From a virus (lineage: Duplodnaviria; Caudoviricetes): DNA of 40,666 nt. The translations under genes and the position numbers were made by a program. Below the pieces are notes generated by a model that was given only the letters and a program-made list of their open reading frames with translations, did not search any database and was not told the DNA's origin. Shown one piece after another: positions 6,201 through 25,632 of the stretch. Every line of letters starts with the position of its first letter. The stretch's first letter is position 1. The stretch lies in the IMG/VR virus record IMGVR_UViG_3300005261_000054, positions 1 to 40,666 of that record; one strand, 5' to 3'.

Positions 6201-7749
6201 TCGCCGCATCGCTCTGGGTGAGGCCGTTTACCTTGGGAACGGTGCTGGTGTTGGCTGCCGGACCGAGTGAAATAACGATGGAAACCGCAGCGCCTGACAC
6301 AGCAGTGGTTCCGGCTGCCGGGTTCTGGCTGATGACGGTGCCGACAATTGCTGTTGTACTGTTGACTGAGGTGACCGTGCCGAGGGTCAAGCCTTTGGTT
6401 GTCAAGGTATTGCCGGCTGCTTGCTGGGTCTGGCCGGTCACATCCGGGACGATGAGCGGCGGCGGTCCGGAAGAGACAACCAGTGCTACGGCTGTTCCGG
6501 CGAGGGTGGTGGTTCCTCCTGCCGGATTCTGGCCGATGACGGTACCGGCAGCTGCGGTGGTGCTTGATGTGGTGGTTATGGTACCGGCAACAAGGTTGGC
6601 CGCCGCAAGTGCTGCCTGAGCATCTGTTTGCGTCTTGCCGAAGACGTTGGGCACGGTAACAGTGGCAGGGCCGCTGGAAACAACGAGGTTGACCGACGAG
6701 CCTTGCACTGCAGTTGCGCTGGCAATGGGGCTTTGGCTGATAACATTGCCGATAGGTACGGTGGTGCTTGAGGCAGTGGTTATGGTACCGACAGTGAGGT
6801 TTGCTGCCGTAATTGCTGTCTGTGCATTCGCCTGCGTCATGCCGACGACATTGGGTACCGAAACGGTCGGCAGACCACTCGACACCACGAGGTTGACCAC
6901 TGAGCCTTGCGACGCGGTTGTACCGGCAGCAGGGGTTTGGCTGATGACGCTGCCGGCAGGTACGGTGGTGCTTGAGGTGGTAGTTATGGTACTGACAGTG
7001 AGGTTTGCCGCCGTAATTGCCGTCTGCGCATTCGCCTGTGTCATGCCTACGACATTAGGTACCGAAACGGTTGACTGACCACTCGACACCACGAGGTTGA
7101 CCGCTGAACCTTGCGACGCCGTTGTACCGGCAACAGGGGTTTGGCTGATGATGGTACCGGCAGGTACGGTGGTGCTTGAGGCGGTAGTTATGGTACCGAC
7201 AGTGAGATTGGCTGCCGTAATTGCTGTTTGAGCGTTCGCCTGTGTCATGCCGACGACATTGGGAACAGTAGCGGAGTGTGATGCTTTGACTATTGCTATG
7301 GTTATGAAGCTTCCCCGTTTGCCTTGAAGCTGAACAGTCAGGACGTTGCGCTTCCGCAACGTCACGTTCCGTTCTATCAGCTTGACACCGTGGTGAAAGT
7401 CGGAGGGACCGATGATCTCGTTACCATTCAGGGTTACGGTGGCGCTGGACACGTCATCATCATCTTTGTGTCTATCGCGATCCCTGTCCCTTCCTCTGCT
7501 TGGTTCTCTATCCCGATCTCTATGCCTGTCCCGCTCTCCGTTGAACAGCAGCAGGGTATAATTGGAACCCTCAGTGTGGACGGTGAATTTCCGTTTCTCG
7601 GTTTCCGGTCTGCCCCTGTCCCGCTCGAATCTCTCTGGTCCAAAGACCGTATGGTGGCCTCTGTCAAAAGATAATGCGTTGTTGAGGAAGAAATGAGGAG
7701 CAAAGCCAAGAAGCAGGCCTGCGATCAGAATAACTTTCACGAACTTCAT
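232..7749 (-). CDS. Secreted teneurin-like / RHS-YD repeat protein with 6 PASTA domains, NHL repeats, RHS core and variable C-terminal (toxin-like) domain
   Basis: Start set at ATG 7749 (GGAGG RBS, signal-peptide-like MKFVKVILIAGLLLG); VPNVVGMTQ PASTA repeats; GVAVGPDGSIYIAD NHL repeats; YD repeats; RFGYRDYEPGTGRWTAKDPI...NPVNWVDPEG RHS core. Confidence 0.92.
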   Translation of the reverse strand: MKFVKVILIAGLLLGFAPHFFLNNALSFDRGHHTVFGPERFERDRGRPETEKRKFTVHTEGSNYTLLLFNGERDRHRDRDREPSRGRDRDRDRHKDDDDVSSATVTLNGNEIIGPSDFHHGVKLIERNVTLRKRNVLTVQLQGKRGSFITIAIVKASHSATVPNVVGMTQANAQTAITAANLTVGTITTASSTTVPAGTIISQTPVAGTTASQGSAVNLVVSSGQSTVSVPNVVGMTQANAQTAITAANLTVSTITTTSSTTVPAGSVISQTPAAGTTASQGSVVNLVVSSGLPTVSVPNVVGMTQANAQTAITAANLTVGTITTASSTTVPIGNVISQSPIASATAVQGSSVNLVVSSGPATVTVPNVFGKTQTDAQAALAAANLVAGTITTTSSTTAAAGTVIGQNPAGGTTTLAGTAVALVVSSGPPPLIVPDVTGQTQQAAGNTLTTKGLTLGTVTSVNSTTAIVGTVISQNPAAGTTAVSGAAVSIVISLGPAANTSTVPKVNGLTQSDAATAITAAGLTVGAIGSDYSSSVTSGTVISQYPLASAKAPAGSAVNLIVSRGPATTIPVPVDPQTIAPALDTTVTTTVAASTSFLYTGTDPIQTGVPTGTIEVRRAAVVRGLATDRTNQPLSGVKITIKDHPEFGQTYTRSDGMFDMAVNGGGSLTVAYEKTGYFPAHRQITVPWQDYAWLPDVVLIPVDTQVTTVNFSSSAQMQVHQGTVVTDTTGTRQATLLFSSGTTAQMVMSDGSTQSAASLNIRATEYTVGTNGPKTMPASLPAASGYTYAVELSADEAIAAGAKQITFSQPVYVYVDNFIGFPTGETVPSGYYDRDKGQWIPSQNGRVIKILSITGGLADIDTDGTGQAGDATKLAALAITDTERQQLATLYPQTPKQLWRVPVTHFSTWDFNWPYGPPSDATAPKQPPPAIAQTQDPCEECGSIIEAENQVLGERIGVPGTPFTLNYRSSRAPGYTPTRSVDIPISGASVPASLKRIDVIIQLAGRRFSQSFSAATNQTYTFTWDGKDAFGRTMQGTQPLKVNIGYVYGLVYLTAKPLGGYDEMFGHFTYYGSPVSALFEEREITIWQAEQLSVGSYFDARSQGLGGWDLDSHHVYDPAGKTLLLGDGGWRSAKTLGASVITTAAGSYKQGSTPSGVAVGPDGSIYTADYNRNRILRVGTDGVMTTIAGNGTAGYGGDGGPATSAMFSNPIDVAVGPDGSIYIADYGNNRIRRVSPDGIITTVAGNGDTYYFRGGDGIPATNAAIYFPTGVAVGPDGSIYIADRGNNRIRRVRADGIITTVAGRGNYDGDYGGDGGLGTSAAFSGPRSVAVGPDGIIYIADEGNHRIRRIGPNGIITTVAGNGAGGYSGDGGPATSASLYGPGGVAVGTDGSIYIADQANLRIRRVGPDGIITTVAGNGVGGYSGDGGSATSASFYTPFGVAVGPDGIIYIADYSNFRIRRVGPVWPSLTINDIYIPSDDGSQLYLFNSSGKHQRTLNALTGATVFGFSYDSNGRLAAVTDGDGNITTIEKDANGNATAIVAPFGQRTTLAINADGYLASLTNPAGEATRMTYSDTGLLSTYTDPKGNIHTFTYDTLGLLTRDENPAGGYTALTGTKTLSSKQKILSTALGRTTTYLTDYLTTNDQRETITSPTGAQSVTVTRTNGSNQSTLPDGTITSVTPGIDPRFGTLVDLPSSATVKAPSGLTGTITINRTATFDPNNNLNLTTQTDTLSLNGKAYTKVFDASHLTYTATTPSGRKTTLLTDNQGRPLSLTLDTAISPLTITYDSRGMMQQMVQGNQQSSYVYDSLGRVASRTDALGNMVKLSYDNADQVTQLTLPSGRTYGFAYDANGNRTQLTMPSGAVHKLGYTVIDLSSDYTPPGNSPYSWQYSLDQEWTRTTLPGGRTVDAGYDSGGRPLGTVYAEATVSLSYNDQTNRLSRMLRTPAGGSSVQQLAYTYDGSLVTGNAFTGVSNGQFTYTYDNNFLLKQINLASGTDNIATAITRDTDGLVTGAGSFTFARTGPAGAVSGISDTASNIAVTYDTLGRVATRTHTVNSKTIYSLQLSYDSTGNISQKTETVTGYPAVTWKYTYDADGQLVQVAQNGVTQQQYTYDVNGNRTTYQLATTTTLSSTYDSQDRLVQQGGTSYQFNADGQLIQRGTDTFQYSAQGELVQASVNGKTVTYAYDGMGRQIARTNSTGTWQYLYGNLGQPFQLTAMRDPAGSLTYFHYDNSGHLFAMDKGGATYYVGADQVGTPKVVTDATGNIVKLLEFDSFGAWTLDSNADFVLPVGFAGGVIDTDTQLVRFGYRDYEPGTGRWTAKDPIFFEGGQGNLYQYVQNNPVNWVDPEGLSAGTLTLPAIQFTFPNLSGLAAFGRVANPVGAFLAVTFYDGNTSAGPYEEAMVTQINRVNPNVKGSTPNYKKPKSKSKSCPYKGKGPKGPPPGEFEKLYWALMVAAGSQRGQDILNNIPDFADTQLPGTTPSAQSAGGFYGTLYNTFIKPLLFR
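3360..4290 (-). repeat. Coding repeats for six NHL beta-propeller blades
   Basis: Six copies of (G/D/S)VAVG(P/T)DG(S/I)IY(I/T)AD..N.RI(R/L)R in the translation, with similar DNA. Confidence 0.85.
6050..7270 (-). repeat. Six PASTA-domain coding repeats; three near-identical 204-bp units at ~6660-7270
   Basis: GACATT anchors at 6847, 7051, 7255 (204-bp period); 68-aa repeats. Confidence 0.9.
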
Positions 7750-7818
7750 GTAACCCTCCAATAGAAAAGCCTGCCATCGAACAAGAAGGCAGGAACAAAA
7801 CAGTGCACGCATAGGCAC

Positions 7819-7876: not shown

Positions 7877-7955
7877 ACTTCGACAGCCCCTCTATCCAGT
7901 CCATTCTGGATGGTGGCTTTGTGCCACACGGTTACCCGTGCTTTACCCTTTCGGC
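7877..7955 (-). ncRNA. c-di-GMP-I (GEMM-I) family riboswitch aptamer
   Basis: Minus strand CGAAAGGGTAAA-GCACGG-GTAA-CCGTGT-GGCACAAAGCC-ACCATCCAG..CTGGATAGAGGGGCTGTCGAA matches the GGGYAAA / GNRA hairpin / CAAAGCC / GGGGYTRYCGA layout, with a compensatory T-A pair in place of the usual C-G. Confidence 0.8.
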
Positions 7956-8365
7956 GACTCGGTATATTTAATTTTAATGAGACGATAAATTAAGAAAATG
8001 ATTTAAGGTTTGGATGTCTGTCTTGTAAGTGAATAATGTCTTTCTGTCAATATTTTTTTCAAGAAAATATTAGCAATTACAAATATTTGAAATTACTTAA
8101 AATACGGGCGAATGTTTTGTATATGGAATTGTTGATTGGATATTTGGGGAAGGACAAAACGAGCAGGAGACACCACTTAAAGATATCTGTCTTTCTTATA
8201 CTTACACACAGGCCTACATACATTGGGACGTATTCTGTCCAGTCAGCTAAAAAAATTCTTGTTCATTAAAAACATAAATGTTTCAATCCCGTAAACTTAA
8301 ATCACTATTTATATGTAATACTAAAGTTCTAGTTTTTATTAATGGAGGGACTATGCCGCTCAAGG

Positions 8366-8731
8366 CTATTCTTGTTTCCGAGATGCTTTCTCGTTACGGA
8401 TACGCAGGATCTCTGCAAATAGCTCGGTTTCTGAAAGAAGAGAGAGTTCATCACAAAGCATCTTCACAATCCTTGGATCGAAATTCTCAAGCTTCTTCAA
8501 AGCATCAAAATATTCCTTCTGCACTTCATCCTGTATAGAAACAATTATTTCACGTTCGTCTATTGCCAGTACTTCGCAGATTTTCCGTATAGATTCTAAT
8601 TTGGGTACAATAGTTCCTTTTTCCCACCGGCTAATTTGCGAAGCGGGCAATCCAGTCATTTTTGCAAGCTCTTTCTGAGCTAGTCCGTGCTGAATTCTGA
8701 TTTTTCTTATTTTGCTTCCGATGCTCTCCAT
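8366..8731 (-). CDS. XRE-family HTH repressor (CI-like)
   Basis: IGSKIRKIRIQHGLAQKELAKMTGLPASQISRWEKG HTH_3 pattern; GGAGG RBS; divergent from the phage operon. Confidence 0.88.
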   Translation of the reverse strand: MESIGSKIRKIRIQHGLAQKELAKMTGLPASQISRWEKGTIVPKLESIRKICEVLAIDEREIIVSIQDEVQKEYFDALKKLENFDPRIVKMLCDELSLLSETELFAEILRIRNEKASRKQE

Positions 8732-14056: not shown

Positions 14057-14299
14057 ATGGCAACTGCAACCTGGCTCCTCACGGCCCTCTCCCTGATCGG
14101 CGTAATCCTCAACACCCATCAGGACCGGCGCTGCTTCTACATCTGGATCGTGACCAACACATCCTGGGCGGCGGTCGATTTTTACAAGGGGATTTACGCT
14201 CAGGCAACCATGTTCCTGCTCTATCTGGCGCTCTCCATCTGGGGATTGTTCAAATGGGGCAAAGGGAAACCTTCTTTAACCCAAAACAGTGAACCCTGA
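14057..14299 (+). CDS. Small PnuC-like (nicotinamide riboside transporter-related) membrane protein
   Basis: Three TM segments, CFYIWIVTN and YLALSIWGLFKW motifs; AAGGA RBS. Confidence 0.65.
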   Translation: MATATWLLTALSLIGVILNTHQDRRCFYIWIVTNTSWAAVDFYKGIYAQATMFLLYLALSIWGLFKWGKGKPSLTQNSEP

Positions 14300-15056: not shown

Positions 15057-16970
15057 ATGAACCTTTTACCGGACAGAAAACTTTCGCTTCCCTCCTGGCT
15101 GCCTGAGCACCGCCGCCGGTCTCTCTCCGGGCAACGCGTCACTGTCACCATCAGCAAAAGCGTCCGCGCACGGCTTTTGACCAAGGAACGCATTCCGCCC
15201 AGCGAATGGAGCGAGAAATACCGCGTCATGGGCAGCGCCGAAAGCTTTGCCGGTCACTGGCGGCGCGATATCGCCCCCCATGCCGTCAAGGTCATGGACC
15301 TGTGGGCGCTCCCCTGGGTGCGTGAACTCTGGTTCTGCGGCCCGGACCAGGCCAGCAAGACCAACTGCATGCTCTCCTGCCTCGGCTGGAGCATTGACCG
15401 AGACCCCGGCAACATCTTCTACACCGCCAGCGGCGAGGACCCGACGAAAAAGATCCTTTCCGAAAAGCTGATCCCCATGCTGCGCAACTCCCCGGTGCTC
15501 GCCCGGCGGCTTTCGCCCAAGGCTGACCACACCGGCCTGGGCATGATCCGCCTTACCCACGGCGTCAACATCTATCCCGCCTGGGCCAACTCCGCGGCAG
15601 CCACGGCCACTTTCTCGGCCAAATACACGTTTAACGATGAGGTGGACAAGTGGTCCATGGTCGGCGCCGAAACCGATCCGATTAAGCGTATCCGCAAGCG
15701 CGCGAAAAACTTTCCCCTTACCCACAAGCATTTCTTTGCCAGCACTCCGGCCGGGAAATACATCTACAGGGAAATGACGGCCTGCCGTCAGGTGTGGGAA
15801 TACGCCGGTCGCTGTCCCGACTGCGATGAGCTGGTTGTCATGGATGAAGAGCATTTCACCCTCCCGACAGACGCCACCCGCGAGAGCATTGAGGCCGATC
15901 CCGCGGCCATCGAATACGCCTGCAACCACTGCGGTTCCCTCTGGGACGAAACCAAACGCCTCGCCGCCTACCGCACCGGCGACTGGCTCTGCGTCAAAGG
16001 CGCCGATGTTGCCCGTCCCTCCAAAGTCGGCGTGCATCTTTCCGGTTTTATTACCCCGGACATGAAGATGGCCGATATCGCCATCACCATTGTCGCTGCA
16101 CGGGCTGGCGACCTTGCGGCCAGGCGTGACCTGGCGCATGGGGTTAAGGCAGTGGACTACGAGGAAGAAACACAACCGATAGTTTCCGCAGAGGGCATTT
16201 TGCGCTTTCGCTCCGAACTTCCGCGCAATCTGGTGCCTCCTGACGCCGCCCGACTGGTTCTTCTGGCCGATACCCAACAGGATAGCTTTTACTATCAGGT
16301 TTGGGCCATGGGATATGCACCTGAGATTTCAATGCACATGGTCCGGCATGGTCAGGTCAAATCGTTTGCCGATCTCGAGGGGCTGCTTACGGTGGACTGG
16401 AAAGATCATGACGGCCGCGTTTACCGCATTGCCTCCGGACTCATAGACTCCGGCGGTACCCGTCGCGGCTGGCAGAAACACAGCCGTACTGTCGAAGTTT
16501 ACCAGTGGTGCAGTGGTCATCGCGTTATGATGCCGATCAAAGGCATGCCCGGTCGTAACGGAGAAATGATCGGGTACAAAACCATCGCAACCTATCCCGG
16601 CACCAACAAGGCTATCCCCGGTGGTCTCACCCGCGCAAACCTGCGTGTAGATTTTTTCAAGGATGAACTGGAGCGGATCCTTGGCATTGAGCCTGACGAC
16701 CCGGGCGCGCTTTCGTTTCATTGCGATATCGAGGAGACCTTTGCCAAGCACTACACCACGGAAACCAAAGATGCCGTTGGAGAATGGACGCACAATAAAA
16801 GCAAGGGCCGGAATGACTACTTTGACTGCACCGTGTATGCCCTGGCCCTGCGGGAGATGGTGAAACTATCCCCATCCATGCGCCGTCCGGCCCGTAATGG
16901 AACAACCGGTAAAACGCAAACCAATATCAAGCCATCCACTTTGCCGAACTGGTTTAGAAACAGGAGATAA
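15057..16970 (+). CDS. terL: Terminase large subunit, GpA family
   Basis: PSEWSEKYR, DQASKT, FNDEVDK, ASTP, CPDC/CNHC, ADTQ, IDSGG, RNDYFDCTVYA. Confidence 0.93.
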   Translation: MNLLPDRKLSLPSWLPEHRRRSLSGQRVTVTISKSVRARLLTKERIPPSEWSEKYRVMGSAESFAGHWRRDIAPHAVKVMDLWALPWVRELWFCGPDQASKTNCMLSCLGWSIDRDPGNIFYTASGEDPTKKILSEKLIPMLRNSPVLARRLSPKADHTGLGMIRLTHGVNIYPAWANSAAATATFSAKYTFNDEVDKWSMVGAETDPIKRIRKRAKNFPLTHKHFFASTPAGKYIYREMTACRQVWEYAGRCPDCDELVVMDEEHFTLPTDATRESIEADPAAIEYACNHCGSLWDETKRLAAYRTGDWLCVKGADVARPSKVGVHLSGFITPDMKMADIAITIVAARAGDLAARRDLAHGVKAVDYEEETQPIVSAEGILRFRSELPRNLVPPDAARLVLLADTQQDSFYYQVWAMGYAPEISMHMVRHGQVKSFADLEGLLTVDWKDHDGRVYRIASGLIDSGGTRRGWQKHSRTVEVYQWCSGHRVMMPIKGMPGRNGEMIGYKTIATYPGTNKAIPGGLTRANLRVDFFKDELERILGIEPDDPGALSFHCDIEETFAKHYTTETKDAVGEWTHNKSKGRNDYFDCTVYALALREMVKLSPSMRRPARNGTTGKTQTNIKPSTLPNWFRNRR

Positions 16971-16971
16971 G

Positions 16972-17181
16972 ATGAAACAAGAAACTACTGTCATTTATCG
17001 CAAACAAGACTTGATCACCATATCCGACGTTGCCCGGAGGTGGGGCGTTTCCAGGCAGAAGGTTTACAACATGATCGACGAAGGGAGGCTGAAGGCATTC
17101 CGGTTCGGTTTTTCCAATGCCCTGCATGTTCCACTCGACCAGGTGAGAAAGATGGAGAGAGGGGAGGTTTTTAAAGGGTGA
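16972..17181 (+). CDS. Excisionase-type (HTH_17) DNA-binding protein
   Basis: AGGAG RBS, ATG 16972; ITISDVARRWGVSRQKVYNMIDEGRLKA. Confidence 0.85.
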   Translation: MKQETTVIYRKQDLITISDVARRWGVSRQKVYNMIDEGRLKAFRFGFSNALHVPLDQVRKMERGEVFKG

Positions 17182-17334
17182 TCTATTTTGTTTCGTCAAG
17201 ATTCATAGGGCGTTCGAAGCTGCACTGACTCCCGAACGCGGACAAATCCGGGCAGGATCATCAAATGTGTGGGGCTCGCCTGACACCCTCCCATTCTTCC
17301 ACCTCTATGAAAATGTGCAGATTTTTCGAATTAT

Positions 17335-17634
17335 CTATTTACACAATAGGGCAAAAGTTGTGAAAATTGCTGCAAACAAGAACAATATTCCCACCTGAGT
17401 CCAATACAAATTTGGTCTTTTAATTTTATTTACTACTCCATAGCCTCTGATACCTATCTCGCCAGTCATCAATGCTCCACATATAATAGAAAATAAGACC
17501 ACAGAAAATGCCAAGAATGAGTCATACTTTGAAGGTAATTTATCAGACACAAGCACTAGCAACATATATCCCGATAAGGTTATTAGTGGAATTACATAAT
17601 CAAATAAATTAGACAAAAACCTTTTCTGCACCAT
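17335..17634 (-). CDS. Cassette gene: three-TM hypothetical membrane protein
   Basis: AGGAG RBS; hydrophobic segments. Confidence 0.75.
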   Translation of the reverse strand: MVQKRFLSNLFDYVIPLITLSGYMLLVLVSDKLPSKYDSFLAFSVVLFSIICGALMTGEIGIRGYGVVNKIKRPNLYWTQVGILFLFAAIFTTFALLCK

Positions 17635-17659
17635 AAGCTCCTAAGTTCTTCTTGTTTTC

Positions 17660-17732
17660 TTCCAACGGCTCTGCTGTTGACTCATCAGCCCAGATTTTTC
17701 CGGGCGGCTGGTGTTCAACTATCAGGTTAGAT
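17660..17732 (-). other. attC-like site (best preserved)
   Basis: Minus: ATCTAAC-CTGATA-GTTGAACACCAGCCGCCCGG-AAAAAT-CTGGGCTGATGAGTCAAC-AGCAGAGCC-GTTGGAA, starting 4 bp after a stop codon. Confidence 0.8.
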
Positions 17733-17736
17733 TCTT

Positions 17737-18375
17737 TTACTTGTTTTGAGTCTCTGCCACTTTTTCTACAGCAGAAGCTAGGCGATCTAGAGTTTCAAGC
17801 TGTTTTGAGAGTATTGAGTTTTGATTTTCAATTAGCTCTACACTTCGTCGTTGTGGTGAATCTTTTTTATTCATTTTTTTAATAAAGAAAATCCAAACGC
17901 CAATGAGTATAAGCAATGGCAACCAACTCACAAATGTTTCAAGCCATATTGATGTATTATTCTTAGAACTTGAAGAACAAGCTTCACGCTGTTCTGCTGT
18001 AACTACGCGAACAGAACTGGAAACGTAAGCTTCTTTTGATTTGGCAGCAACATCAAGTACTCTAAAGCTAACCTCTTGCGAAGGTGGGACAACCACGCCA
18101 TAAAGCGGTTGAGTGACGGTGTCTATTAATCTCTTTGCTTGATCAAAATATTTAACTTCCAGAACAAGTCTATCAATCCGCATATCTGATAAATTCTTGA
18201 TAGTGCCTATAGTTGATATATTGCCGTGGCCATCCTCTTTCGAGTAACTAAAGGTCGTGTCAGATATTTTTAGAATATTTCCAGGATTGTCTATGGTGTC
18301 CTGATCAGCATAGCCCTTCGAGATAATTGAAATTAAGAGCATCAACATTACAAATAAAACGGTTTTGATTTTCAT
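17737..18375 (-). CDS. Cassette gene: exported FxLYD-like Ig-fold protein with C-terminal TM and coiled coil
   Basis: GAGGAG RBS, ATG 18375; signal peptide; GTIKN...VKYFD...LIDT; TM SWLPLLILIGVWIFFIKKM. Confidence 0.75.
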   Translation of the reverse strand: MKIKTVLFVMLMLLISIISKGYADQDTIDNPGNILKISDTTFSYSKEDGHGNISTIGTIKNLSDMRIDRLVLEVKYFDQAKRLIDTVTQPLYGVVVPPSQEVSFRVLDVAAKSKEAYVSSSVRVVTAEQREACSSSSKNNTSIWLETFVSWLPLLILIGVWIFFIKKMNKKDSPQRRSVELIENQNSILSKQLETLDRLASAVEKVAETQNK

Positions 18376-18390
18376 AAATCTCCTCTTTTT

Positions 18391-18425
18391 GTACAACGGC
18401 TCGAAAATTGACCGACTGTGACCGG
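18391..18425 (-). other. Partial attC-like site (right arm only)
   Basis: Minus: GGTCAA-TTTTCGAGCC-GTTGTAC then RBS/ATG; left arm not recognisable. Confidence 0.55.
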
Positions 18426-18710
18426 TATTATTTTCTGGGAATCACACTTCAAAAAATTTCGTTTTCGTGCTGGCCCCTAAATTTCTTCTGTCTAAATTGA
18501 TGCGGCCAGTTTGACAAGCTGCGCCTTGTTTGCGCCCATCAGCCCAACTTTGATGCCTTTGCTCCTGATAACGGCGGTAGCTTTGGCGTTGAGATTTAGC
18601 AGCAGGATAATGTTGACAAATGGAATTAACATGCAAACAAAAAAAGCCCAATTGGCATGCAGCTTCAACTCATCCGCTAAGCAGTACACAAACACAAATT
18701 TTAAAAAAGC

Positions 18711-20057
18711 GGTTCCTCACACATACCTGTGCAAATTTGATGGCATGGCTAGATCGCCCATGCAGTGATACAAATTAAGTATATAGTTCTTTGCCGTTCT
18801 GAATCCGTAGGCTCGGTGACTTATTACCTTGGCCTTGTTGTTGAGACCTTCTGCGATTCCGTTTGAGATCGGCATATCGAAGTAGGTGAGGATGTTGTCC
18901 TCATGCCGCCTGATTAGTTTGACGACTTCTTGCATCGGCTTGATCTCTGATTCATCGGCCCATGAGTACCATTGTTGAAGGTACTTGGCAGCGTCCTCTT
19001 TTGTCGGTGACTGCCAGAAATCTCTGAAGGACTCCTTGAGCAGATAAGCTCGGTGGATGGTCAGGTTCAGTTTCTCCAGGGTATCCAGCGAAGCCTTCTG
19101 CCCATCCGTGAGATTCCAAGGATTTTTGAGCCAGATGTATCTACTGCCGGCAACCAGTTTCTTGTGCTCTTTGCCTTTTTCAGTGATCTCCTGGCGGCGC
19201 ACCGTATCAACCGCTTCAGTGAGTTTCCTAACGATATGGAACTTATCGAAGACCAATATTGCCTGTGGTGCCTTGGCCTTAACCGCATTGATAAAGGCTG
19301 GCCACATATCACAACAGATGCCGAGCAGTTGTTTGGTCCTCTCTGGGCCGAAGAAGCTGAAAAAGGCCTCAAGGCTTTCTATTGAGCGGCCTTCTCCGCT
19401 TCAGATGAGTGTTCCGGTTTTAAGGTCATATACATTCGTAAGATAGACATGACCTTTTTGCCGAGAAATCTCATCGATACCGATATGGGTTATTCCCGAC
19501 AAATCACGGTGAGCCAAACCAAAGGCAACCACATAGGCAACTGCTGTTGCTACTGTACCCCAGGAGCAACCAAACTGTCTGGCAACCTGTTGCCAGGTCA
19601 GTTGTCGTGCCCAGGTAGCGATGGTGACAGCAAGTGCTCTGGTGAGACGCTTCTTGCCAGCAGCCCATGGCATCAGTTCAACATGGATGCCGCCACACTC
19701 TGAGCAACTGACACGACACGGAGTGTACGTCAGGTTCACTGCGATACCCCAAATCGGCACATGGCGAAAGCGGCGTGCTTGCAAGGTATCGCGATAATCA
19801 CCGGAAGCCCCGCACACACCACAGCGGGGATGGTAACGGAGATCAGCCTGGATGGTGACGAGTAGTTCGGAATCCTTCTTCTCAACGGATTCGATGCGAA
19901 ATCCTTGCAACTCGAGTGTCTCGCGGATAAGCTGTTTGACAAGCATGGGTTCCTCTTTCAGATAGAATGGTTGGTCGCGCTTCCATAACTACCTGATGGA
20001 ACTCATGCTTTTCAATTATTAAAGAACAAAATTACTTACTGATTACCGTGACGAACC
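18711..20057 (-). mobile_element. ISL3-family insertion sequence (1347 bp)
   Basis: Ends GGTTCCTCAC / GGTTCGTCAC (inverted); 8-bp TSD AAAAAAGC at 18703-18710 and 20058-20065. Confidence 0.93.
18717..19946 (-). pseudogene. ISL3 transposase with one in-frame TGA at 19401-19403
   Basis: CGVC/CSEC zinc finger, IGIDE, DKFHIV, SNGIAEGLNNKAK...AYGFR; both ORF halves in the same frame. Confidence 0.9.
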
Positions 20058-20197
20058 AAAAAAGCAATTATTATAAAGACTGGTCGAAATACAAAGTCAA
20101 CAAAGGAGGCGAGAACCAACCAGATAATAACCCTCTGACTTTTTGCAATTGCAATAACGTTATCATTTGAATATTGCGTCATATATCTTCCTTGTGT

Positions 20198-20270
20198 GGC
20201 TAACGGGAACCACCATTGACTCATCCGGGCAGCTTTTCCGTCCGGTCGGCATCAAACGGTGTGATTGGGA
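20198..20270 (-). other. attC-like site
   Basis: Minus: TCCCAAT-CACACCGTTTGATGCCGACCGG...CCGGATGAGTCAATGGTGGTTCCC-GTTAGCC; shares GATGAGTCAA with the 17660 site; left core AAC changed to AAT. Confidence 0.7.
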
Positions 20271-20323
20271 ATCGCTTTTTAGATTATTCCCTTTTCAAGG
20301 ACAGACACCTCTGTTTCCCCTTG

Positions 20324-20773
20324 TTAGGATGTTTTCAGGTTTTCCCTTTTGCTTTTCCTTGATGGGGGCGGGATTTCATTATCAATGTATGCGTTCATAA
20401 CCTTATCCCCCCAAGACGTAGCATAATCTTCTCTAATCGGGGAATTATGGATCATTTGATAGTAGTATTTAAGAATGCGGCTAATGGCAGCAATAACAGT
20501 GGGGTATGCCACATCTTCCCCTTCATCTCTTAGATTTTTATCGAACGATTTTACAGCGATTTCTCCTATAACAGATTCAGCACCACTTGAATTTTGCCAA
20601 AATCTGAGAGCGCATTCTGTACCATCGAAATCAATTAGGACTTGCTTGTATATGAGCCTGATTTCAAGCGGGTTTGGAAACTCATAATATTTTCGAAGCC
20701 ACTTTTCAAAGTAGGATATCTCTTTTTTCAAATCAGGATTCACATCGCCTATATATTTAAAGGATAAACTCAT
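20324..20773 (-). CDS. Cassette gene: hypothetical cytoplasmic protein
   Basis: ORF with AGGA RBS before ATG 20773; stop codon lies within TCCTAAC, an attC left-core-like motif. Confidence 0.75.
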   Translation of the reverse strand: MSLSFKYIGDVNPDLKKEISYFEKWLRKYYEFPNPLEIRLIYKQVLIDFDGTECALRFWQNSSGAESVIGEIAVKSFDKNLRDEGEDVAYPTVIAAISRILKYYYQMIHNSPIREDYATSWGDKVMNAYIDNEIPPPSRKSKRENLKTS

Positions 20774-21061
20774 ATTTCCTAAACTCCCCATGGAGCTGAG
20801 GGTGTGCGGGTTTTCACTGCACCGCCCGATGTTTGGCTACTCAGGTTTCTTGAATTCGATTCTCTTTAGGTAACGGAATCTTTACCTGTGATTATTGCCC
20901 AAACCTGCTCCCCAAACACTTCAAGTCGTCCATTTGGTGGAAAATCTGTTTGCCCAAGAATCTTTCTGTCCTGCATCAACTCAACGATGTCCTAGTCATT
21001 ACGTGTGCAGTTGGCGGATTTCTCTTCTGTCTTTTTCTCTTCGCAACTCGTAAATTGACTG

Positions 21062-21181
21062 TCATATGTGCATCGCGTTGTATGTTAGTGAATGGAGAGG
21101 GATGACATCGACAAGTCGCACTGCACAAACGCCTAGTATGAGTGTTGCAATCAAGACTGCTATCCATTTTGATCGTCGCAT
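21062..21181 (-). pseudogene. Truncated cassette gene (39 aa, signal-peptide-like)
   Basis: ATG follows the attC right core; reads MRRSKWIAVLIATLILGVCAV... then an early TGA. Confidence 0.45.
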
Positions 21182-21195
21182 ATTCATCTCTTTTT

Positions 21196-21256
21196 GCCTA
21201 ACGCCACAAGCCTGACTGGGGCGGGTTTATCTCCCCGGTCTTGACGCGAGTTGGAC
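21196..21256 (-). other. attC-like site
   Basis: Minus: GTCCAAC-TCGCGTCAA-GACCGGGG..CCCCAGTC-AGGCTTGTGGC-GTTAGGC, 7 bp after a stop codon. Confidence 0.75.
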
Positions 21257-21263
21257 ATCTTCG

Positions 21264-21848
21264 TCAATGTTTAGCTCTGGCACCTAACTCTGTCACGCCC
21301 CTCTCCTTCTTGAAGCGTATTGCATCTGGCAATGCCGATTCAGGGTTCTTGCCATCCCAGCCAAATTCAAACGTCTTCTGTTGTCCTTTGTAGGTAAATG
21401 ACAAAGTAATTATCCCGTTTCCGATCCTTGCCGATGCCCAATTAAAGGCAGAACCATCATCGAGAATACACCCTTGAAATAAATCTCCTACCAAACGCTC
21501 TGCTGTGCGCTTCTCATCTTCCCAAGAAAAGTCTGTCAGGGTTCTCTCTATGAGACTGTCATAGTCACGCGCGGCAAAGAATAGAAACAGTCCGTCTCGT
21601 GTTGTCCACACGACTCCGGATCCTTTACGTGCAACATCCACTATTACGTCACAACACCCCACGCAACCGCAGTCGCAGCGTCCGACCAAGAGTCTACCGC
21701 CATGCAGGAGAGAATCCTGCGCAAAGAACTTAGGGGGATCTATCCCAAGGCTGTCATCACCAAGCCAGTCCTCCCCATCAACAACAACTCGCACCTGATG
21801 GTCATTCGAACTGGGGCTTGGTTCTATTCTGAATTCCAGTTTATTCAT
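21264..21848 (-). CDS. Cassette gene: hypothetical protein with a CxCGxxGC motif
   Basis: 194 aa; GRCDCGCVGCCD. Confidence 0.8.
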   Translation of the reverse strand: MNKLEFRIEPSPSSNDHQVRVVVDGEDWLGDDSLGIDPPKFFAQDSLLHGGRLLVGRCDCGCVGCCDVIVDVARKGSGVVWTTRDGLFLFFAARDYDSLIERTLTDFSWEDEKRTAERLVGDLFQGCILDDGSAFNWASARIGNGIITLSFTYKGQQKTFEFGWDGKNPESALPDAIRFKKERGVTELGARAKH

Positions 21849-22204
21849 CTCTTGCCTGCCAAACGGTTTAAAAAATCACCTGACGGCTTTTGGTCAGATG
21901 CATCGTCCCCGCTGGGTCCGGTATTTAATTCAGCCTCTTCGGCCTTCAATCGCCATTGTTCAGCAACTAGAGACTCCTCGTCAATTCCATCAATAGGCCG
22001 ATTAAGCTCAAGAATTGATTGGGCTTGGTAGTCTGTGAATAAATATTTTTCGACCAGATGCTTTTTGGGATCTTCTTCTGTATCAATGATTTCAATAATT
22101 TTACCCGCGGCCCGTCGTGCCTTTAAAAGGCCTTCAATAATGTGCTGTCTCCACAAATTGATTTGTATGCGTTTTTCAGTATTTGCTTCAGTCATGAGGT
22201 TCAT
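21845..22204 (-). CDS. Cassette gene: stand-alone GyrA/ParC C-gate-like domain
   Basis: QHIIEGLLKA...IIEII..EEDPKKHLVEKYLFTDYQAQSILEL resembles GyrA/ParC HILEGLLIA..IDEVI..I...L...F.LSE.QAQAIL. Confidence 0.65.
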   Translation of the reverse strand: MNLMTEANTEKRIQINLWRQHIIEGLLKARRAAGKIIEIIDTEEDPKKHLVEKYLFTDYQAQSILELNRPIDGIDEESLVAEQWRLKAEEAELNTGPSGDDASDQKPSGDFLNRLAGKR

Positions 22205-22268
22205 CTTTCATTGGCATAGCGTTTTTGTTTTTGTCCTGATGGGCGAGATTGTATGTATGTTTACAAAT

Positions 22269-22538
22269 TCAGAAAAATGACTCTACGAGATCAGGCATTA
22301 ACACGAAAAGTATTCCTAAACATATTGCCAATAATGAAGCAACTCTAGCTGTCCATCCTGTTAAATAGCCATTTGCTGGGCGCCCTTCCCATCCGAATGG
22401 GACACGCCCCCGGCGAAACATTTGTATTCCAAAAATAATTTCAGCAAGCCCAAGAACGCGGATGCCGACAATACGTTCATAAAAAAACGCGAATACACAC
22501 ACTGCGAAAACGAAGAAACCCCAGACGTTATCATTCAT
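22269..22538 (-). CDS. Cassette gene: three-TM hypothetical membrane protein
   Basis: ATG 22538 just after the GTTGGGT core at 22548-22554; hydrophobic. Confidence 0.7.
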   Translation of the reverse strand: MNDNVWGFFVFAVCVFAFFYERIVGIRVLGLAEIIFGIQMFRRGRVPFGWEGRPANGYLTGWTARVASLLAICLGILFVLMPDLVESFF

Positions 22539-22594
22539 TTTGTTATCACCCAACGGTTCAGCCGGGACCCGACGCAGCTTTATCTCGAACGGAG

Positions 22595-23155
22595 CTACTG
22601 GCCGGACCTCATTTTCTCATCGGCCATTCTGGCCTGTGCGATTACCTCGTGAGCTTTATGGAATAGGGGCGATAGTGGCAGGCGGTTATTGCCTAAATCG
22701 TTTTCATTTGATTCCACTGTGAGAATGCCGTTCGATGTGAGGAAATAGAAACGCGTGTTGCCCTGGGAGGGAAGTGGAAAAGTCTTCGTAGGCAATGCTT
22801 GGCCAAGAAATTGGTTGGAAAAGGTCAAAAACTCGCTACTTGCTTTTCTGGGACCTTCATGTTGGCCAACTCCAATAATTCCGCCGCCATTGCTGAAGTA
22901 GAGGCTAACTGTGCCGTCGGCGAGAGTAACCAAAGTGGCAACCGCTTCAGGATATCCGGTCTCCATGACAACGCCCCATACGCTATTTGAACGTGATGGG
23001 GTTACTCCAATTTTTGATGGATCGAGTAGGAATACTTGTTGTCTGAGGTTTCGATAAATGTCTGCTGTCTTGTAATGATTTGTGTCTGGCTTATTGCAAC
23101 CGAAGATGCCTAAAATCGATCCCAAAAAACTTGCCATTACGATTCCTCTTTTCAT
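22595..23155 (-). CDS. Cassette gene: hypothetical, possibly a lipoprotein (alternative start 23137)
   Basis: LGSILGIFGC; DGTVSLYFSNGGGIIGVG; the ORF-track extension to 23257 runs through the attC-like site. Confidence 0.8.
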   Translation of the reverse strand: MKRGIVMASFLGSILGIFGCNKPDTNHYKTADIYRNLRQQVFLLDPSKIGVTPSRSNSVWGVVMETGYPEAVATLVTLADGTVSLYFSNGGGIIGVGQHEGPRKASSEFLTFSNQFLGQALPTKTFPLPSQGNTRFYFLTSNGILTVESNENDLGNNRLPLSPLFHKAHEVIAQARMADEKMRSGQ

Positions 23156-23170
23156 GATATCTCTTTTTAT

Positions 23171-23238
23171 AATTAACGTTTTTGCGCTTGACCTGCCGGG
23201 GCAGTATACCCGGTTATAGTCTGAGCGCCTGGATAACT
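23171..23238 (-). other. attC-like site
   Basis: Minus: AGTTATC-CAG-GCGCTCAGAC-TATAACCGGG..CCCGGCAG-GTCAAGCGC-AAAAAC-GTTAATT; extra base on the left arm as in canonical attC; left core degenerate. Confidence 0.75.
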
Positions 23239-23257
23239 GCCTGACACTTAAGAACAT

Positions 23258-23495
23258 CTATTTTCTTCTTCGCTTCATTCTCTGATAAATAGCAATGGCA
23301 ATTAAAACCGCTGCCACAGCACACCAAGAACAAAACGATAAAAGTTCGGATCAATGCCGAATGATCGGACTACTCCGTCTTCCCATTTAATTATCTCATG
23401 GGCAAAGACGTAGCGAACTAGGATGAGTATGATCATCGCTACGATCAAAACTTCTACTGGGTAAATCACTTTTTATCGTTGGGTTTTAAATTCAT
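23258..23495 (-). pseudogene. Frameshifted small membrane-protein gene, first cassette of the array
   Basis: Hydrophobic pieces VEVLIVAMIILILVRYVF and AVAAVLIAIAIYQRMKRRRK* in different frames. Confidence 0.5.
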
Positions 23496-23736
23496 TCTTT
23501 AATCCAGCCGTTATTGCCCAGACCTCACCATCCACTCAAACTGGATATCTAAGTATGCGCACATTAAAACAAAAGACGCTTCGTGAAGCGATTCCCCGGG
23601 TATCCACATACGTATTACGTATCTTTATAATTAGAAATAATGAAAAACAAGGGTAAATCGCATCATTAAACAAAATGTTTCATTTCGTGTAATGCCGATC
23701 CATCATTGTTGCCGGTTACAGACGCTCTGCCTCCAG

Positions 23737-23795
23737 TGTCCTGTCAAATCTGTCAAAAAGTGTCTTATCTGTCCAACTTGTAAAATAACGTAACT
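23737..23795 (+). promoter_or_regulatory. Phased TGTC repeats upstream of the head operon
   Basis: TGTC at 23742, 23751, 23761, 23770, TGTA at 23779, CGTA at 23789 (9-10 bp spacing). Confidence 0.5.
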
Positions 23796-23836
23796 TCCGT
23801 CTCACCACTCCGCCATGGATGTGCCATGCTTCGCGC

Positions 23837-24079
23837 ATGGCAATCACCTCCCTCTACACAGACGCGGAACTAAGCGAACTTATCGCCGCCTACAAAAAGG
23901 CCCTGCTCGATCTCGCCCAGGGAAAGCGGATCCGTTTTTCCTCTGCCGGGTCCGATCACGAATTCGAGCCGCAGGACATCGAAAGCGTTCAAAAAGCCCT
24001 CGACTATTTCCAATCCCAGAAAGCCAAAAACGCCGGGCTTACCGGTCCCCAGTTTCTTTCCGCGAGGCCCAGACGATGA
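23837..24079 (+). CDS. gpW-like head completion protein
   Basis: 80 aa directly upstream of the portal with ATGA overlap; helix-hairpin-helix pattern. Confidence 0.7.
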   Translation: MAITSLYTDAELSELIAAYKKALLDLAQGKRIRFSSAGSDHEFEPQDIESVQKALDYFQSQKAKNAGLTGPQFLSARPRR

Positions 24080-25632
24080 CAAGTCCCGGTTGCCGCATAC
24101 GCCGCAGCTACCTCTCGCCACGCGCACAGGCCGCCATGCTGCCCGGAATGCAGGGATCCGCCTTCACCCGCACTGCCGGTTCCGCAGGCGGCACGTTCTC
24201 CAACTGGTCGCCCCGTCGCCTGACATGGACAGAGGAGGGTCGCCAGCGCGAACGCATCGTCGAACGTGCCAACGACATTGCCGCCAATAACGCCCACGGC
24301 GCCAGCCTGATCGATTCCATCGCCATCAACACCGTTGGTACCGGGCTCTGGCCGCAAGCCAAACCCAACTGGAAGCGCCTGGGCATCACGGAAGAACAGG
24401 CCCAGAACATTGCCGAAACCATGGAATGGGAGTTCGAACAGTTCACCCGCACCTCCGACGCCTCCGCCCCCAGCGCCGAAACAGCTACCTGCAATTTTTA
24501 CGGCCAGCAATTTCAAAACATCTATTCCATGCTGGTCAATGGCGAGTTCCTCAACCTCCCGCTCATGATGGACGACCCGACGCGGCGCTACTCATTGGCC
24601 CTGCAAGCGGTTGATCCGGTTCGCCTGCGCACTCCCCTGGCCTACATCGGAGCCACCGACGTGCGTGACGGCATCCGCTTGGGCAAAAACGGGCAGCCTG
24701 TGGGGTATCTGCTGGCCGATCCCGAGGACGGGCGCCTGTCCACCTCCCTCGACCTGCGCAGCTTCCGCGAACTTCCTCCCCGTGCCGGACACCGCCCGGT
24801 AGTAATCCACCGTTTCCACAAGAAAAACCCCGAACAGGTACGCGGCGTTTCGATCCTGGCACCGGCCATGAAGTTCTTCCGCGACATGAACGACTATCTG
24901 GATTTCGAGCTGGTAGGAGCCATTATCGCTGCCAGTTTCCCGGTATTCATCCAGAAGTCACCCGATTTTGACGCCGTGACCAGGCACGGAAGCGAGCCGA
25001 CCGTCACCGATCCAACCCGGTATCAGGAAGTGTCCCCGGGTGTCATGTACGGCAACCCGGGAGAAGAGCCGCATGTATTGTCCAATCCCCGGCCCGGCGG
25101 ATCGTTCGGCGTCTTCGTCGAAACCATCCTGCGCGCCGTGGGAGCTGCTGCAGGCATGCCCTATGAAGTCATTGCCAAAGACTTCAGCAAAACCAATTAC
25201 AGCAGCGCCCGTGCAGCACTTGAAGAAGCATGGCGCGTATTCGGCATGTACCAGGACTGGCTGGTTACCTATTTCTGCCAAATCATCTGGGAAATGGTCT
25301 GGGAAGAAGCATGGCTGCGCGGGTACATCAAACTGCCTGCCGGAGCCCCGGACTTTTACGCCGCCAGAGCCGAATGGACCGCCGCAACCTGGATCGTTCC
25401 CGAACGGACCAACCTGGATCCGGTCAAGGAAATCACCGCAGCCATTCTGGCCAAGAACAACAACATGGGCACCGATGCCGACTTCGCCGCCAAGCGCGGC
25501 AAAGACTGGGAAGCGATCTATGAACAGCGTTCCCGCGAAATCAAAAAGGCCAGGGAACTCGAGCTTCCGGATGCCGCGGGAGCACAAAAACAGACCGTAG
25601 CCAACAAAACAGCGCCCGAGGAACAAGCATGA
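24076..25632 (+). CDS. Portal protein, lambda family
   Basis: EQVRGVSILAP, GMPYEVIAKDFSKTNYSSARAAL, LDPVKE; start at ATG 24076. Confidence 0.93.
   Translation: MTSPGCRIRRSYLSPRAQAAMLPGMQGSAFTRTAGSAGGTFSNWSPRRLTWTEEGRQRERIVERANDIAANNAHGASLIDSIAINTVGTGLWPQAKPNWKRLGITEEQAQNIAETMEWEFEQFTRTSDASAPSAETATCNFYGQQFQNIYSMLVNGEFLNLPLMMDDPTRRYSLALQAVDPVRLRTPLAYIGATDVRDGIRLGKNGQPVGYLLADPEDGRLSTSLDLRSFRELPPRAGHRPVVIHRFHKKNPEQVRGVSILAPAMKFFRDMNDYLDFELVGAIIAASFPVFIQKSPDFDAVTRHGSEPTVTDPTRYQEVSPGVMYGNPGEEPHVLSNPRPGGSFGVFVETILRAVGAAAGMPYEVIAKDFSKTNYSSARAALEEAWRVFGMYQDWLVTYFCQIIWEMVWEEAWLRGYIKLPAGAPDFYAARAEWTAATWIVPERTNLDPVKEITAAILAKNNNMGTDADFAAKRGKDWEAIYEQRSREIKKARELELPDAAGAQKQTVANKTAPEEQA

What the first reader, a model, noticed from the sequence alone, without database searches (positions are those of the whole stretch)
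17200..23500. Integron-like attC cassette array embedded in a prophage morphogenesis operon
Seen: about ten unrelated, short, AT-rich genes on the minus strand between terL/HTH and gpW. On the plus strand the junctions share AAC-N9..11-TTGAC: 17664 AACGGCTCTGCTGTTGAC, 18395 AACGGCTCGAAAATTGAC, 20202 AACGGGAACCACCATTGAC, 21200 AACGCCACAAGCCTGAC, 23175 AACGTTTTTGCGCTTGAC, and degenerate 21862 AACGGTTTAAAAAATCAC, 22218 AGCGTTTTTGTTTTTGTC, 22552 AACGGTTCAGCCGGGAC. On the coding strand this places a GTT core about 10-25 bp before each ATG. Four sites (17660, 20198, 21196, 23171) form 61-73 bp imperfect hairpins, three of them starting within ~20 bp of the previous stop. Established: this is integron cassette architecture, and integron cassettes can carry anti-phage genes. 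Inference: the phage carries its own cassette array as a variable moron/defence locus and can package and spread it. I do not know this as a described feature of lambda-like prophages.
Basis: partly seen in the sequence, partly recalled or inferred. Interest (0 to 1): 0.9.

Follow-up and report, generated by a model that had tools for sequence, protein, structure and literature searches.

The report
Decaying integron cassette array inside prophage
Between the DNA-packaging and head genes of a lambda-like prophage sits a real but worn row of about ten integron gene cassettes with no integrase, likely captured from one particular lineage of Geobacter-type host integrons; phage-borne cassette arrays have been known since 2023, and neither current mobility nor anti-phage function is shown for this one.

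Summary
Observation largely confirmed. Seven of nine gene junctions between terL/HTH and gpW are decayed attC sites. A covariance model trained only on 43 host attCs ranks four of them as the top 4 of 21 window hits, and the seven match host attCs by sequence. The sites belong to attC families found beside one clade of long (~450 aa) IntI in the class of a Geobacter genome; a model of ordinary host attCs misses them. A decayed attI-like site heads the array; no intI lies in the window. Close relatives hold different genes with the same attC type in this slot, an otherwise general moron slot (median 817 bp, n=57). Five of nine junctions have lost an AAC or GTT core, so the array is likely mostly frozen. 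No window gene hits PADLOC. Qi et al. 2023 described phage CALINs, and this scan noted similar terL-portal arrays in other genomes. Verdict: new variant of a known kind, interest 0.47.

The parts
15057..16970 (+). terL (gpA-type large terminase), left flank
   Evidence: Pfam GpA_ATPase 2.9e-40 and GpA_nuclease 3.6e-34
16960..17181 (+). Excisionase-like HTH_17 gene, last phage gene before the array
   Evidence: Pfam HTH_17 1.6e-8, TIGR01764 over cut-off
17335..17634 (-). Gene 10 (99 aa, hydrophobic, unknown); no attC detected after it
   Evidence: ORF; tail 17190-17300 scores 25.5 vs host attCs, background level
17660..17732 (-). attC, AAC and GTT intact
   Evidence: R1 18.3 bits; 78% over 76 nt to host site in L219, E 1e-6; 0 of 200 shuffles
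17737..18375 (-). Cassette gene 9 (212 aa; weak FxLYD-like domain, hydrophobic segments)
   Evidence: NCBIfam NF038353 E 0.0015, below cut-off
18392..18467 (-). Weak attC-like site, AAC and GTT intact, arms poorly paired
   Evidence: 8 of 200 shuffles as high; 86% over 35 nt to L215, E 0.34
18492..18702 (-). 3' half of cassette gene 8, cut by ISL3
   Evidence: halves sum to 336 nt, a multiple of 3; an IS-free contig joins 18702 to 20058 in run X1
18711..20057 (-). ISL3-family insertion sequence with 8-bp target duplication (18703-18710, 20058-20065); transposase carries a premature TGA at 19401-19403
   Evidence: Pfam DDE_Tnp_ISL3 3.9e-64; inverted repeats and duplication; copies in runs X2, X4, X7 read another base at 19401
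20058..20182 (-). 5' half of cassette gene 8
20198..20270 (-). attC, left core AAC changed to AAT
   Evidence: 80% over 56 nt to L238, E 5e-5; 20202-20316 is 80% over 116 nt to L240, E 4e-19, ending at the GTT
20324..20791 (-). Cassette gene 7 (about 150 aa, unknown)
   Evidence: ORF; no Pfam, NCBIfam, PADLOC or PHROG hit
   Evidence: 89% over 44 nt to host site in L228, E 1e-6
20840..21187 (-). Cassette gene 6, pseudogene (internal stops; its 3' part matches a longer host cassette gene)
   Evidence: 20792-21066 is 73% over 279 nt to L252, E 1e-31, homology ending at the crossover position; frames
21196..21256 (-). attC, AAC and GTT intact
   Evidence: R1 13.4 bits, R2 13.8 bits; 77-80% to host sites in L236, L248, L252
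21264..21848 (-). Cassette gene 5 (194 aa, family of unknown function)
   Evidence: ESM Atlas hits only hypothetical clusters; an 86%-identical copy in run X1 matches 21208-21903 only, i.e. from one attC to the next
21858..21917 (-). attC, left core AAC changed to AGC; lies inside the read-through end of gene 4
   Evidence: R1 23.7 bits; 88-91% to host sites in L216, L241, L244; a contig of run X7 leaves the window at 21861, one base past the GTT
21845..22204 (-). Cassette gene 4 (119 aa, weak likeness to a GyrA/ParC segment); no stop before its attC
   Evidence: NCBIfam NF004044 E 1.4e-13, far below cut-off
22212..22290 (-). Junction with GCT in place of GTT; not supported as attC
   Evidence: 56 of 200 shuffles as high
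22269..22538 (-). Cassette gene 3 (89 aa, hydrophobic, unknown)
   Evidence: ORF, no family hit
22546..22615 (-). attC, left core not recognisable, GTT intact
   Evidence: 78% over 69 nt to L230, E 2e-5; score 66
22595..23155 (-). Cassette gene 2 (186 aa; 1313 homologs, some fused to ankyrin repeats)
23171..23238 (-). attC, left core AAC changed to ATC
   Evidence: R1 27.4 bits, best hit in the window; 82% over 56 nt to L237
23260..23490 (-). Cassette gene 1, pseudogene spread over three frames
   Evidence: 62% protein identity to a gene in the host integron array of L230, E 4e-9; frames
23503..23575 (-). Decayed attI-like site heading the array (core GTT read as GCT, one base short)
   Evidence: best of 81,282 positions for a host attI weight matrix, 10.4 bits vs host median 30.2; aligns to L217 attI with score 63, 0 of 4274 window tiles as high
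23599..23680 (.). AT-rich leader segment with a palindrome and a plus-strand sigma70-like match; shared with contigs of runs X1 and X2 that continue into other DNA
   Evidence: loose ends at 23599, 23604, 23680; 10 of 12 promoter match at 23603-23631
23819..24079 (+). gpW-position gene (label from gene order, no family hit), right flank
   Evidence: homologs directly before portal in related phages; no Pfam or PHROG hit
24076..25632 (+). Lambda-family portal
   Evidence: Pfam Phage_portal_2 6.6e-78

Best explanation
The block is an integrase-less integron cassette array (a CALIN with a decayed attI-like head) that likely came from the long-IntI integrons of a Geobacter-type host, sits in the phage's terL-gpW accessory slot, and is likely now mostly frozen. 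Shown: seven junctions are homologs of host attC sites; two cassettes and one cassette tail have homologs in host arrays; no intI lies in the window; cores and genes are decayed; an ISL3 came in after the array formed. Inferred mechanism: a piece of a host integron reaching from the attI leader into the cassettes recombined into the slot, which tolerates kilobase inserts, probably because the head genes have their own control region just before gpW; the host's long IntI could then add or remove cassettes in trans in the lysogen; without an integrase in cis and with little selection on the sites, AAC/GTT cores drifted, so that at most the sites at 17660, 21196 and perhaps 18392 remain substrates. 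The cassettes face against the late operon and would be read from the leader in the lysogen, like morons.
For: Model R1 from 43 host attCs only (80.9% of cells paired vs 64.4% shuffled, covariation 0.387 vs 0.150) gives the top 4 of 21 window hits, all minus strand inside the array. The top 7 of 369 minus-strand tiles are all in the array. blastn identities of 72-91% to host sites; host homology ends at the crossover position for 20792-21066 (L252) and 20202-20316 (L240). In public runs one contig leaves the window one base past the GTT at 21861 into a ribosome-binding-like stretch and an ATG, and another matches only 21208-21903, from one attC to the next. attI-like site is the best of 81,282 positions. 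32 of 33 IntI rows labelled with this attC type fall in one 45-row clade (SH-aLRT 99), none of 25 rows with ordinary attCs does. IntI passes the TIGR02249 cut-off in 107 of 201 genomes of the class. No intI in the window (best tblastn E 0.018). Window sites score 13-27 bits vs 26-54 for held-out sites in long-IntI loci. Related phages L001 and L002 (terL 87-89%) hold other genes with this attC type in the slot.
Against: The sites are not significant hairpins alone and a generic geometry scan does not lift them from background. Only two R1 hits have E below 0.01 and E-values are rough. The 43 training sites were chosen by me for long spacers after seeing the window sites, and the loci by an E-value band, so the clade link is partly circular; the tree is the quick one. 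The attI-like site scores a third of host sites and needs a one-base gap; the 561-nt leader found no match in 261 genomes. Genes 2, 5 and 9 were not found in 401, 331 and 331 genomes, so their origin in host arrays is not shown. The read-laying breakpoints rest on single contigs at 85% likeness. Phage-borne IntI genes with the same attC type exist in this phage group, so the donor need not be the chromosome. Host identity is inferred from terL similarity only.
Confidence: 0.72

Rival explanations
1. The slot is a live, integrase-free docking platform: the phage keeps an attI-derived site and is loaded one cassette at a time, in trans, by host or co-resident phage IntI, so cassettes turn over between phage lineages.
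For: attI-like site at the head of the array; an attI-like site also before the first gene in L002 (11.9 bits); different cargo in L001 and L002; L001 sites score 36 and 20.9 bits; 11 of 57 related terL-portal loci carry an IntI-like gene, two of them over the TIGR02249 cut-off (G050 and G057).
Against: The attI core is changed, and the cassette next to it, which would be the newest, is a pseudogene with a broken attC core. Window and L001/L002 share no DNA after terL, so their arrays look like separate captures, not states of one platform. Only L026, L002 and the open-ended L001 show such sites in the slot among the loci scanned.
Confidence: 0.15
2. The array descends from the phage group's own integron (IntI just upstream of terS) by rearrangement and loss of intI, not from a chromosomal integron.
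For: IntI lies upstream of the terminase genes in L004, L005, L271, L275, L276, L294, L297, L299, L300, L307, with R1-type attCs nearby in L005, L299, L307.
Against: In the phage-borne arrays examined (L005, L023, L026) the ORFs run opposite to the attCs, in the phage's direction; the window has the host-like arrangement, a host-like attI and host-array homologs. The two phage IntI tested fall outside the long-IntI clade, on long branches.
Confidence: 0.09
3. The junction motifs are chance or terminator/REP-like hairpins in an ordinary AT-rich moron block.
For: Weak folding; generic scan not above background; the control model R2 finds one site at E 0.54; most inserts in this slot lack attC hits.
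Against: Seven junctions match host attCs at 72-91% and outrank all other window tiles; homology ends at crossover positions.
Confidence: 0.04

Closest known systems
CALINs and integrons in phage genomes (Qi, Rajabal, Ghaly, Tetu, Gillings 2023, PMC9892861; read parts 1-4 of 7: abstract to conclusion; supplements not opened)
   Same: Cluster of co-oriented attC-bounded genes without intI in a phage; their Shewanella prophage M16-3 has a CALIN with its own attI, flanked by terminase, scaffold and tail genes.
   Different: Here a lambdoid prophage of a Geobacter-type host, about ten cassettes, a donor IntI clade can be named, sites are decayed, and relatives show recurrent filling of one slot. 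Their sites were tested with IntI1; these are untested.
Sedentary chromosomal integrons and attC anatomy (Bouvier 2009 PMC2727003, Buongermino Pereira 2020 PMC7370490, Ghaly 2021 PMC8352920; passages only)
   Same: R''-spacer-L''-loop-L'-spacer-R' layout, RYYYAAC/GTTRRRY cores, an extrahelical base in L'', length 55-141 nt, spacers up to 10 nt.
   Different: This subtype mostly has an 8-9 nt L'-R' spacer and the extrahelical base at position 5 of L'' against 5-8 nt and position 4 beside other IntI of the same class; a model of the ordinary type finds 4 hits in 13 long-IntI loci. Whether it equals the Deltaproteobacteria model of Ghaly 2021 or clade 15 of Nemergut 2008 (PMC2426708, passages) was not tested.
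SALINs and attC x attG insertion (bioRxiv 10.1101/2022.09.11.507474; passages)
   Same: Integron cassettes outside a complete integron; the paper suggests small CALINs can arise by insertion into genome sites.
   Different: Here many cassettes and an attI-like head point to capture of an integron segment rather than single attG insertions.
Integron cassettes as anti-phage stores (bioRxiv 10.1101/2024.07.02.601686 and 10.1101/2024.07.02.601719; search listing and start of abstracts only)
   Same: Small cassettes of unknown function; cargo of relatives hits PADLOC PDC-S45 (E 3.9e-19) and PD-T7-4 (E 2.8e-7).
   Different: No window ORF hits any defence model.
Lambdoid morons (recalled knowledge)
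   Same: AT-rich accessory genes inserted between morphogenesis genes, often against the late operon; this slot holds a HicAB-like pair, an outer-membrane-like protein or methylases in relatives (labels from reading the sequences).
   Different: Here the cargo is bounded by integron recombination sites.

Membership tests
CALIN | Two or more attC sites clustered on one strand within a few kb | tested here: met
   four R1 hits on the minus strand in 5.6 kb; seven by homology
CALIN | No integron integrase nearby | tested here: met
   tblastn with 7 IntI, best E 0.018; Pfam scan of 46 ORFs; the array is 17 kb from either end of the window
CALIN | Detection by IntegronFinder or HattCI plus the published attC model | not testable with these tools
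   models not available; no attC match in Rfam at gathering thresholds; own model of ordinary host attCs finds one site, 13.8 bits
attC site | R''/L''/L'/R' layout with RYYYAAC and GTTRRRY cores | tested here: inconclusive
   layout present at seven sites; both AAC and GTT intact only at 17660, 21196 and the weak 18392 site; 20198 has AAT (sequences)
attC site | Extrahelical base in L'' and unpaired central spacer, supported by covariation | tested here: met
   for the host family: 13 of 19 pairs with compensatory change, slid controls far lower; window sites align to that structure
attC site | Bottom strand folds into the recombinogenic hairpin | tested here: inconclusive
   MFE folds partial or alternative, z -1.3 to +1.3
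attC site | Recombined by an IntI at G/TT | not testable with these tools
   indirect only: homology and contig breakpoints at the cores
Complete integron | intI gene next to the array | tested here: not met
Complete integron | attI site at the head of the array | tested here: inconclusive
   best window hit, but 10.4 vs 30.2 bits, core changed
Complete integron | Pc promoter facing the cassettes | tested here: inconclusive
   no minus-strand sigma70-like match in the leader at 9 of 12; matches overall at chance level, 12 vs 11.7
Anti-phage defence island | Genes of known defence families | tested here: not met
   0 of 11 window ORFs hit PADLOC at E 0.01
Inducible lambda-like prophage | gpA terminase, lambda portal, S49 protease, D, E capsid, repressor | tested here: met
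Inducible lambda-like prophage | Own integrase, att ends, complete tail and lysis genes, virion formation | not testable with these tools
   the held genome is the window only and ends in the tape-measure gene

The most novel reading that the evidence does not exclude
Lambdoid phages of Geobacter-type bacteria run a two-way trade with one host integron lineage: many carry their own IntI with inverted cassettes upstream of terS, and others keep an attI-derived dock in the terL-gpW slot that host long-clade IntI loads in trans. Because these attCs have a shifted geometry that ordinary attC models miss, phage-borne cassette traffic, including defence genes, is far more common than surveys report.
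Probability: 0.22. Interest if true: 0.75.

Novelty: new variant of a known kind. Interest (0 to 1): 0.47.

Why it matters
Integron parts were found in only 21 of 10,705 phage genomes (PMC9892861), and how they got there was left open. This case ties a phage array to a named donor lineage (long IntI clade, its attC families and its attI), shows the same slot filled separately in close relatives, and shows what happens afterwards (core decay, pseudogenes, IS insertion). It also suggests that a whole attC subtype is poorly seen by ordinary models, which would bias integron surveys. It gives a direct test: one IntI clade, matched intact and decayed sites.

Tried and rejected
Rfam at gathering thresholds: only a c-di-GMP-I riboswitch at 7879-7957, no group II intron or attC match. 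Generic attC geometry scan: no discrimination in the window. Pattern scan of viral contigs with a site-derived motif: 119 stretches, judged mostly chance from their flanks; of those with a tblastn hit to window genes one was the L002/L007 phage. Leader 25-mer in viral contigs: 0. Leader DNA in 261 genomes: 0. Genes 2, 5, 9 in 401, 331, 331 genomes: 0; gene 2 in viral contigs and plasmids: 0. No close cultured phage (best terL 27%). A terminal attC after the last gene (17190-17300): background score, rejected. The 22218 site: rejected. The 63-aa ORF 20976-21167 is not the cassette's frame. Promoter and terminator scans at chance level. No RNA holder listed. Run X1 has no cover over 21906-22839 but no contig joins across it, so no loss of cassettes is claimed; 64 loose ends and 90 pieces of that answer were not shown, so breakpoints at the other sites remain unseen. 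The idea that the leader segment 23599-23680 is the start of a truncated intI (loose ends read like a short N-terminus) was not confirmed by comparison with host IntI starts. The careful IntI tree did not finish; the quick tree is used. PHROG: no named family for 8 cassette ORFs. Literature searches; none listed a paper on this attC subtype or on terL-gpW cassette slots, but subscription papers and supplements (such as the phage list of PMC9892861) were not seen.

Full report
Setting. The held genome is the window itself, a 40.7-kb virus record. It carries a lambda-like prophage: repressor-like HTH (8366-8731), primase, terL (15057-16970), an excisionase-like HTH_17 gene, then the block in question, then a gpW-position gene, lambda portal, S49 protease, D, E and a tape measure cut by the window end. 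The nearest genome-borne terL (63%) is in a Geobacter MAG, and 16 of 331 genomes of that class have a terL match at E 1e-60. The host is therefore inferred to be of that class (Desulfuromonadia, name recalled).

Observation. Taken alone, however, the sites are unconvincing: folding z-scores are -1.3 to +1.3, and a generic attC-geometry scan scores one of them, level with 22 other hits. A contig in run X1 joins 18702 to 20058 with four differences in 608 nt, so an IS-free form exists, and contigs of the same run cover terL, the HTH gene and the last array gene at about 91-97% identity.

Test against host integrons. IntI passes the TIGR02249 cut-off in 107 of 201 genomes of the class. I fetched 80 regions around these genes. 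Beside most short (about 330 aa) IntI and some long ones, attCs have the extrahelical base at position 4 of L'' and a 5-8 nt L'-R' spacer. Beside one group of long (about 450 aa) IntI they are short, mostly with the base at position 5 and an 8-9 nt spacer. In a quick tree of 79 IntI, 32 of 33 rows labelled with this type fall in one 45-row clade (SH-aLRT 99); the 33rd is a phage IntI on a long branch; none of 25 rows with ordinary sites falls in it; 21 rows were unlabelled. Labels and loci were my choice, so this is partly circular. Spacers up to 10 nt are within the published range (PMC7370490, passage).

A covariance model from 43 such host sites (structure supported by covariation) ranks 23171-23238, 21858-21917, 17660-17732 and 21196-21256 as the top 4 of 21 hits over both strands of the window, at 27.4, 23.7, 18.3 and 13.4 bits. 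Held-out sites in long-IntI loci score 26-54 bits. By local alignment the top 7 of 369 minus-strand tiles all lie in the array. blastn gives 72-91% identity between junctions and host sites. Per site, seven are well supported, 18392-18467 is weak (8 of 200 shuffles) and 22212-22290 is not (56 of 200). A control model from 28 ordinary host attCs finds one window site at E 0.54 and only 4 of its 67 hits in the 13 long-IntI loci among 30 given.

Cassette-precise signs. Homology to host arrays stops at the crossover position for 20792-21066 (L252, 73%) and 20202-20316 (L240, 80%), and gene 1 has a 62% homolog in the array of L230. One contig of run X7 leaves the window at 21861, one base past the GTT, into a ribosome-binding-like stretch and an ATG about 30 nt on; one contig of X1 matches only 21208-21903, from one attC to the next. 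These are single contigs laid at 85% likeness. Against this, genes 2, 5 and 9 were not found in 401, 331 and 331 genomes.

Head of the array. 26 of 40 long-IntI loci show a shared attI-like motif upstream of intI. The window's best match to its weight matrix, of 81,282 positions, is 23527-23503, directly before the first cassette, but at 10.4 bits against a host median of 30.2 and with one base missing. It aligns to the L217 site better than any of 4274 window tiles (best of 26 host sites). No intI lies in the window. The leader found no match in 261 genomes.

Decay. Both AAC and GTT survive only at 17660, 21196 and the weak 18392 site; 20198 has AAT. Gene 1 is spread over three frames, gene 6 has internal stops, gene 8 is cut by the IS, and gene 4 reads through its attC. 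The cassette next to attI, normally the newest, is among the broken ones, which argues against recent turnover.

The slot. Of 57 non-redundant related terL-portal intervals the median is 817 bp; the window's 7.1 kb is exceeded by one. Many relatives have HTH and gpW within 110-400 bp. The two closest relatives by terL (87-89%) hold other minus-strand genes here: L001 with sites at 36 and 20.9 bits, L002 with one decayed site and an attI-like site before its first gene. They share no DNA with the window after terL, so these look like separate captures. L026 has sites in the slot with ORFs on the opposite strand. Most inserts show no such sites. In 17 of 19 related loci, 9-bp direct repeats lie 23-46 nt before gpW (0 of 200 shuffles each; the window's own are weak, 0.1). 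I infer a control region there, perhaps bound by the HTH_17 protein (BldC-like binding to direct repeats, PMC5859096, listing only), which would uncouple head genes from terL and explain why the slot tolerates inserts. This is untested.

Function. None of 11 window ORFs hits PADLOC; Pfam, NCBIfam and PHROG give only weak partial hits; ESM Atlas gives hypothetical clusters for gene 5. Cargo of relatives looks more defensive: PDC-S45 (E 3.9e-19), PD-T7-4 (E 2.8e-7) and a NACHT/NB-ARC-like 868-aa protein just below cut-off.

Mechanism. Most likely (0.72) a segment of a long-IntI host integron, from the attI leader into the cassettes, recombined into the slot; host IntI may have edited it in trans; then it decayed. 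Rivals: a live integrase-free dock (0.15); descent from the phage group's own integron (0.09), since 11 of 57 loci carry an IntI-like gene, seen upstream of the terminase genes in the ten loci whose positions I read; chance hairpins (0.04). Recombination, expression, packaging and defence are all untested.

Known and new. Qi et al. 2023 (PMC9892861, parts 1-4 of 7 read) found 3 integrons, one In0 and 17 CALINs in 10,705 phage genomes and showed five of six tested phage attCs recombine with IntI1, so the kind is known. Earlier notes of this scan list similar terL-portal arrays in other genomes; none was found for this stretch or for the long-IntI link. What this case adds is a named donor clade, an attC subtype that an ordinary model misses, an attI remnant, recurrent filling of one slot and a record of decay. 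My searches listed no paper on that subtype, but they cover open-access text only. Verdict: new variant of a known kind, interest 0.47.

Noticed in passing
L005:3854-5020, L004:997-2019, L271, L275, L276, L294, L297, L299, L300, L307: Related lambdoid phages carry their own IntI just upstream of the terminase genes; two pass the TIGR02249 cut-off (G050:C22 and G057:C3). 11 of 57 terL-portal loci have an IntI-like gene.
   Followed up: partly
L005:1617-2852, L031:693-752, L023:953-9169, L026:8385-9131: attC sites on the minus strand alternate with plus-strand phage genes, several of them methylase-like: cassettes with inverted ORFs read in the phage's direction.
   Followed up: partly
L215-L267 (long-IntI loci), between intI and attI: Many long-IntI integrons have a conserved small ORF and short direct repeats between intI and attI; a subgroup (L217, L244, L256, L258, L266, L267) lacks it and has attI about 200-250 nt from intI.
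   Followed up: no
window 23740-23780 and upstream of gpW in 19 related loci: Four tandem 9-bp direct repeats before gpW, significant in 17 of 19 relatives; candidate binding site of the HTH_17 protein encoded after terL.
   Followed up: partly
window 23599-23680: AT-rich segment with a palindrome and a plus-strand promoter-like match, shared with contigs of runs X1 and X2 that continue into other, mutually similar DNA. Identity unknown.
   Followed up: partly
window 232-7818 and 7879-7957: A 2528-aa PASTA, NHL and YD/RHS-repeat protein downstream of a c-di-GMP-I riboswitch, apparently host DNA beside the prophage.
   Followed up: no
window 14057-14299: 80-aa ORF with a nicotinamide mononucleotide transporter-like Pfam hit over cut-off, between primase region and small terminase-position gene.
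   Followed up: no
window 21845-22204: Cassette protein with weak likeness to a GyrA/ParC segment (E 1.4e-13, far below cut-off).
   Followed up: no
window 20270-20320; L240:12658-12771 and 14229-14293: A non-coding stretch just before the attC is shared by different cassettes in a host array and the window.
   Followed up: no
L001:8303-8370: Two attC hits only 66 nt apart, an ORF-less mini cassette.
   Followed up: no
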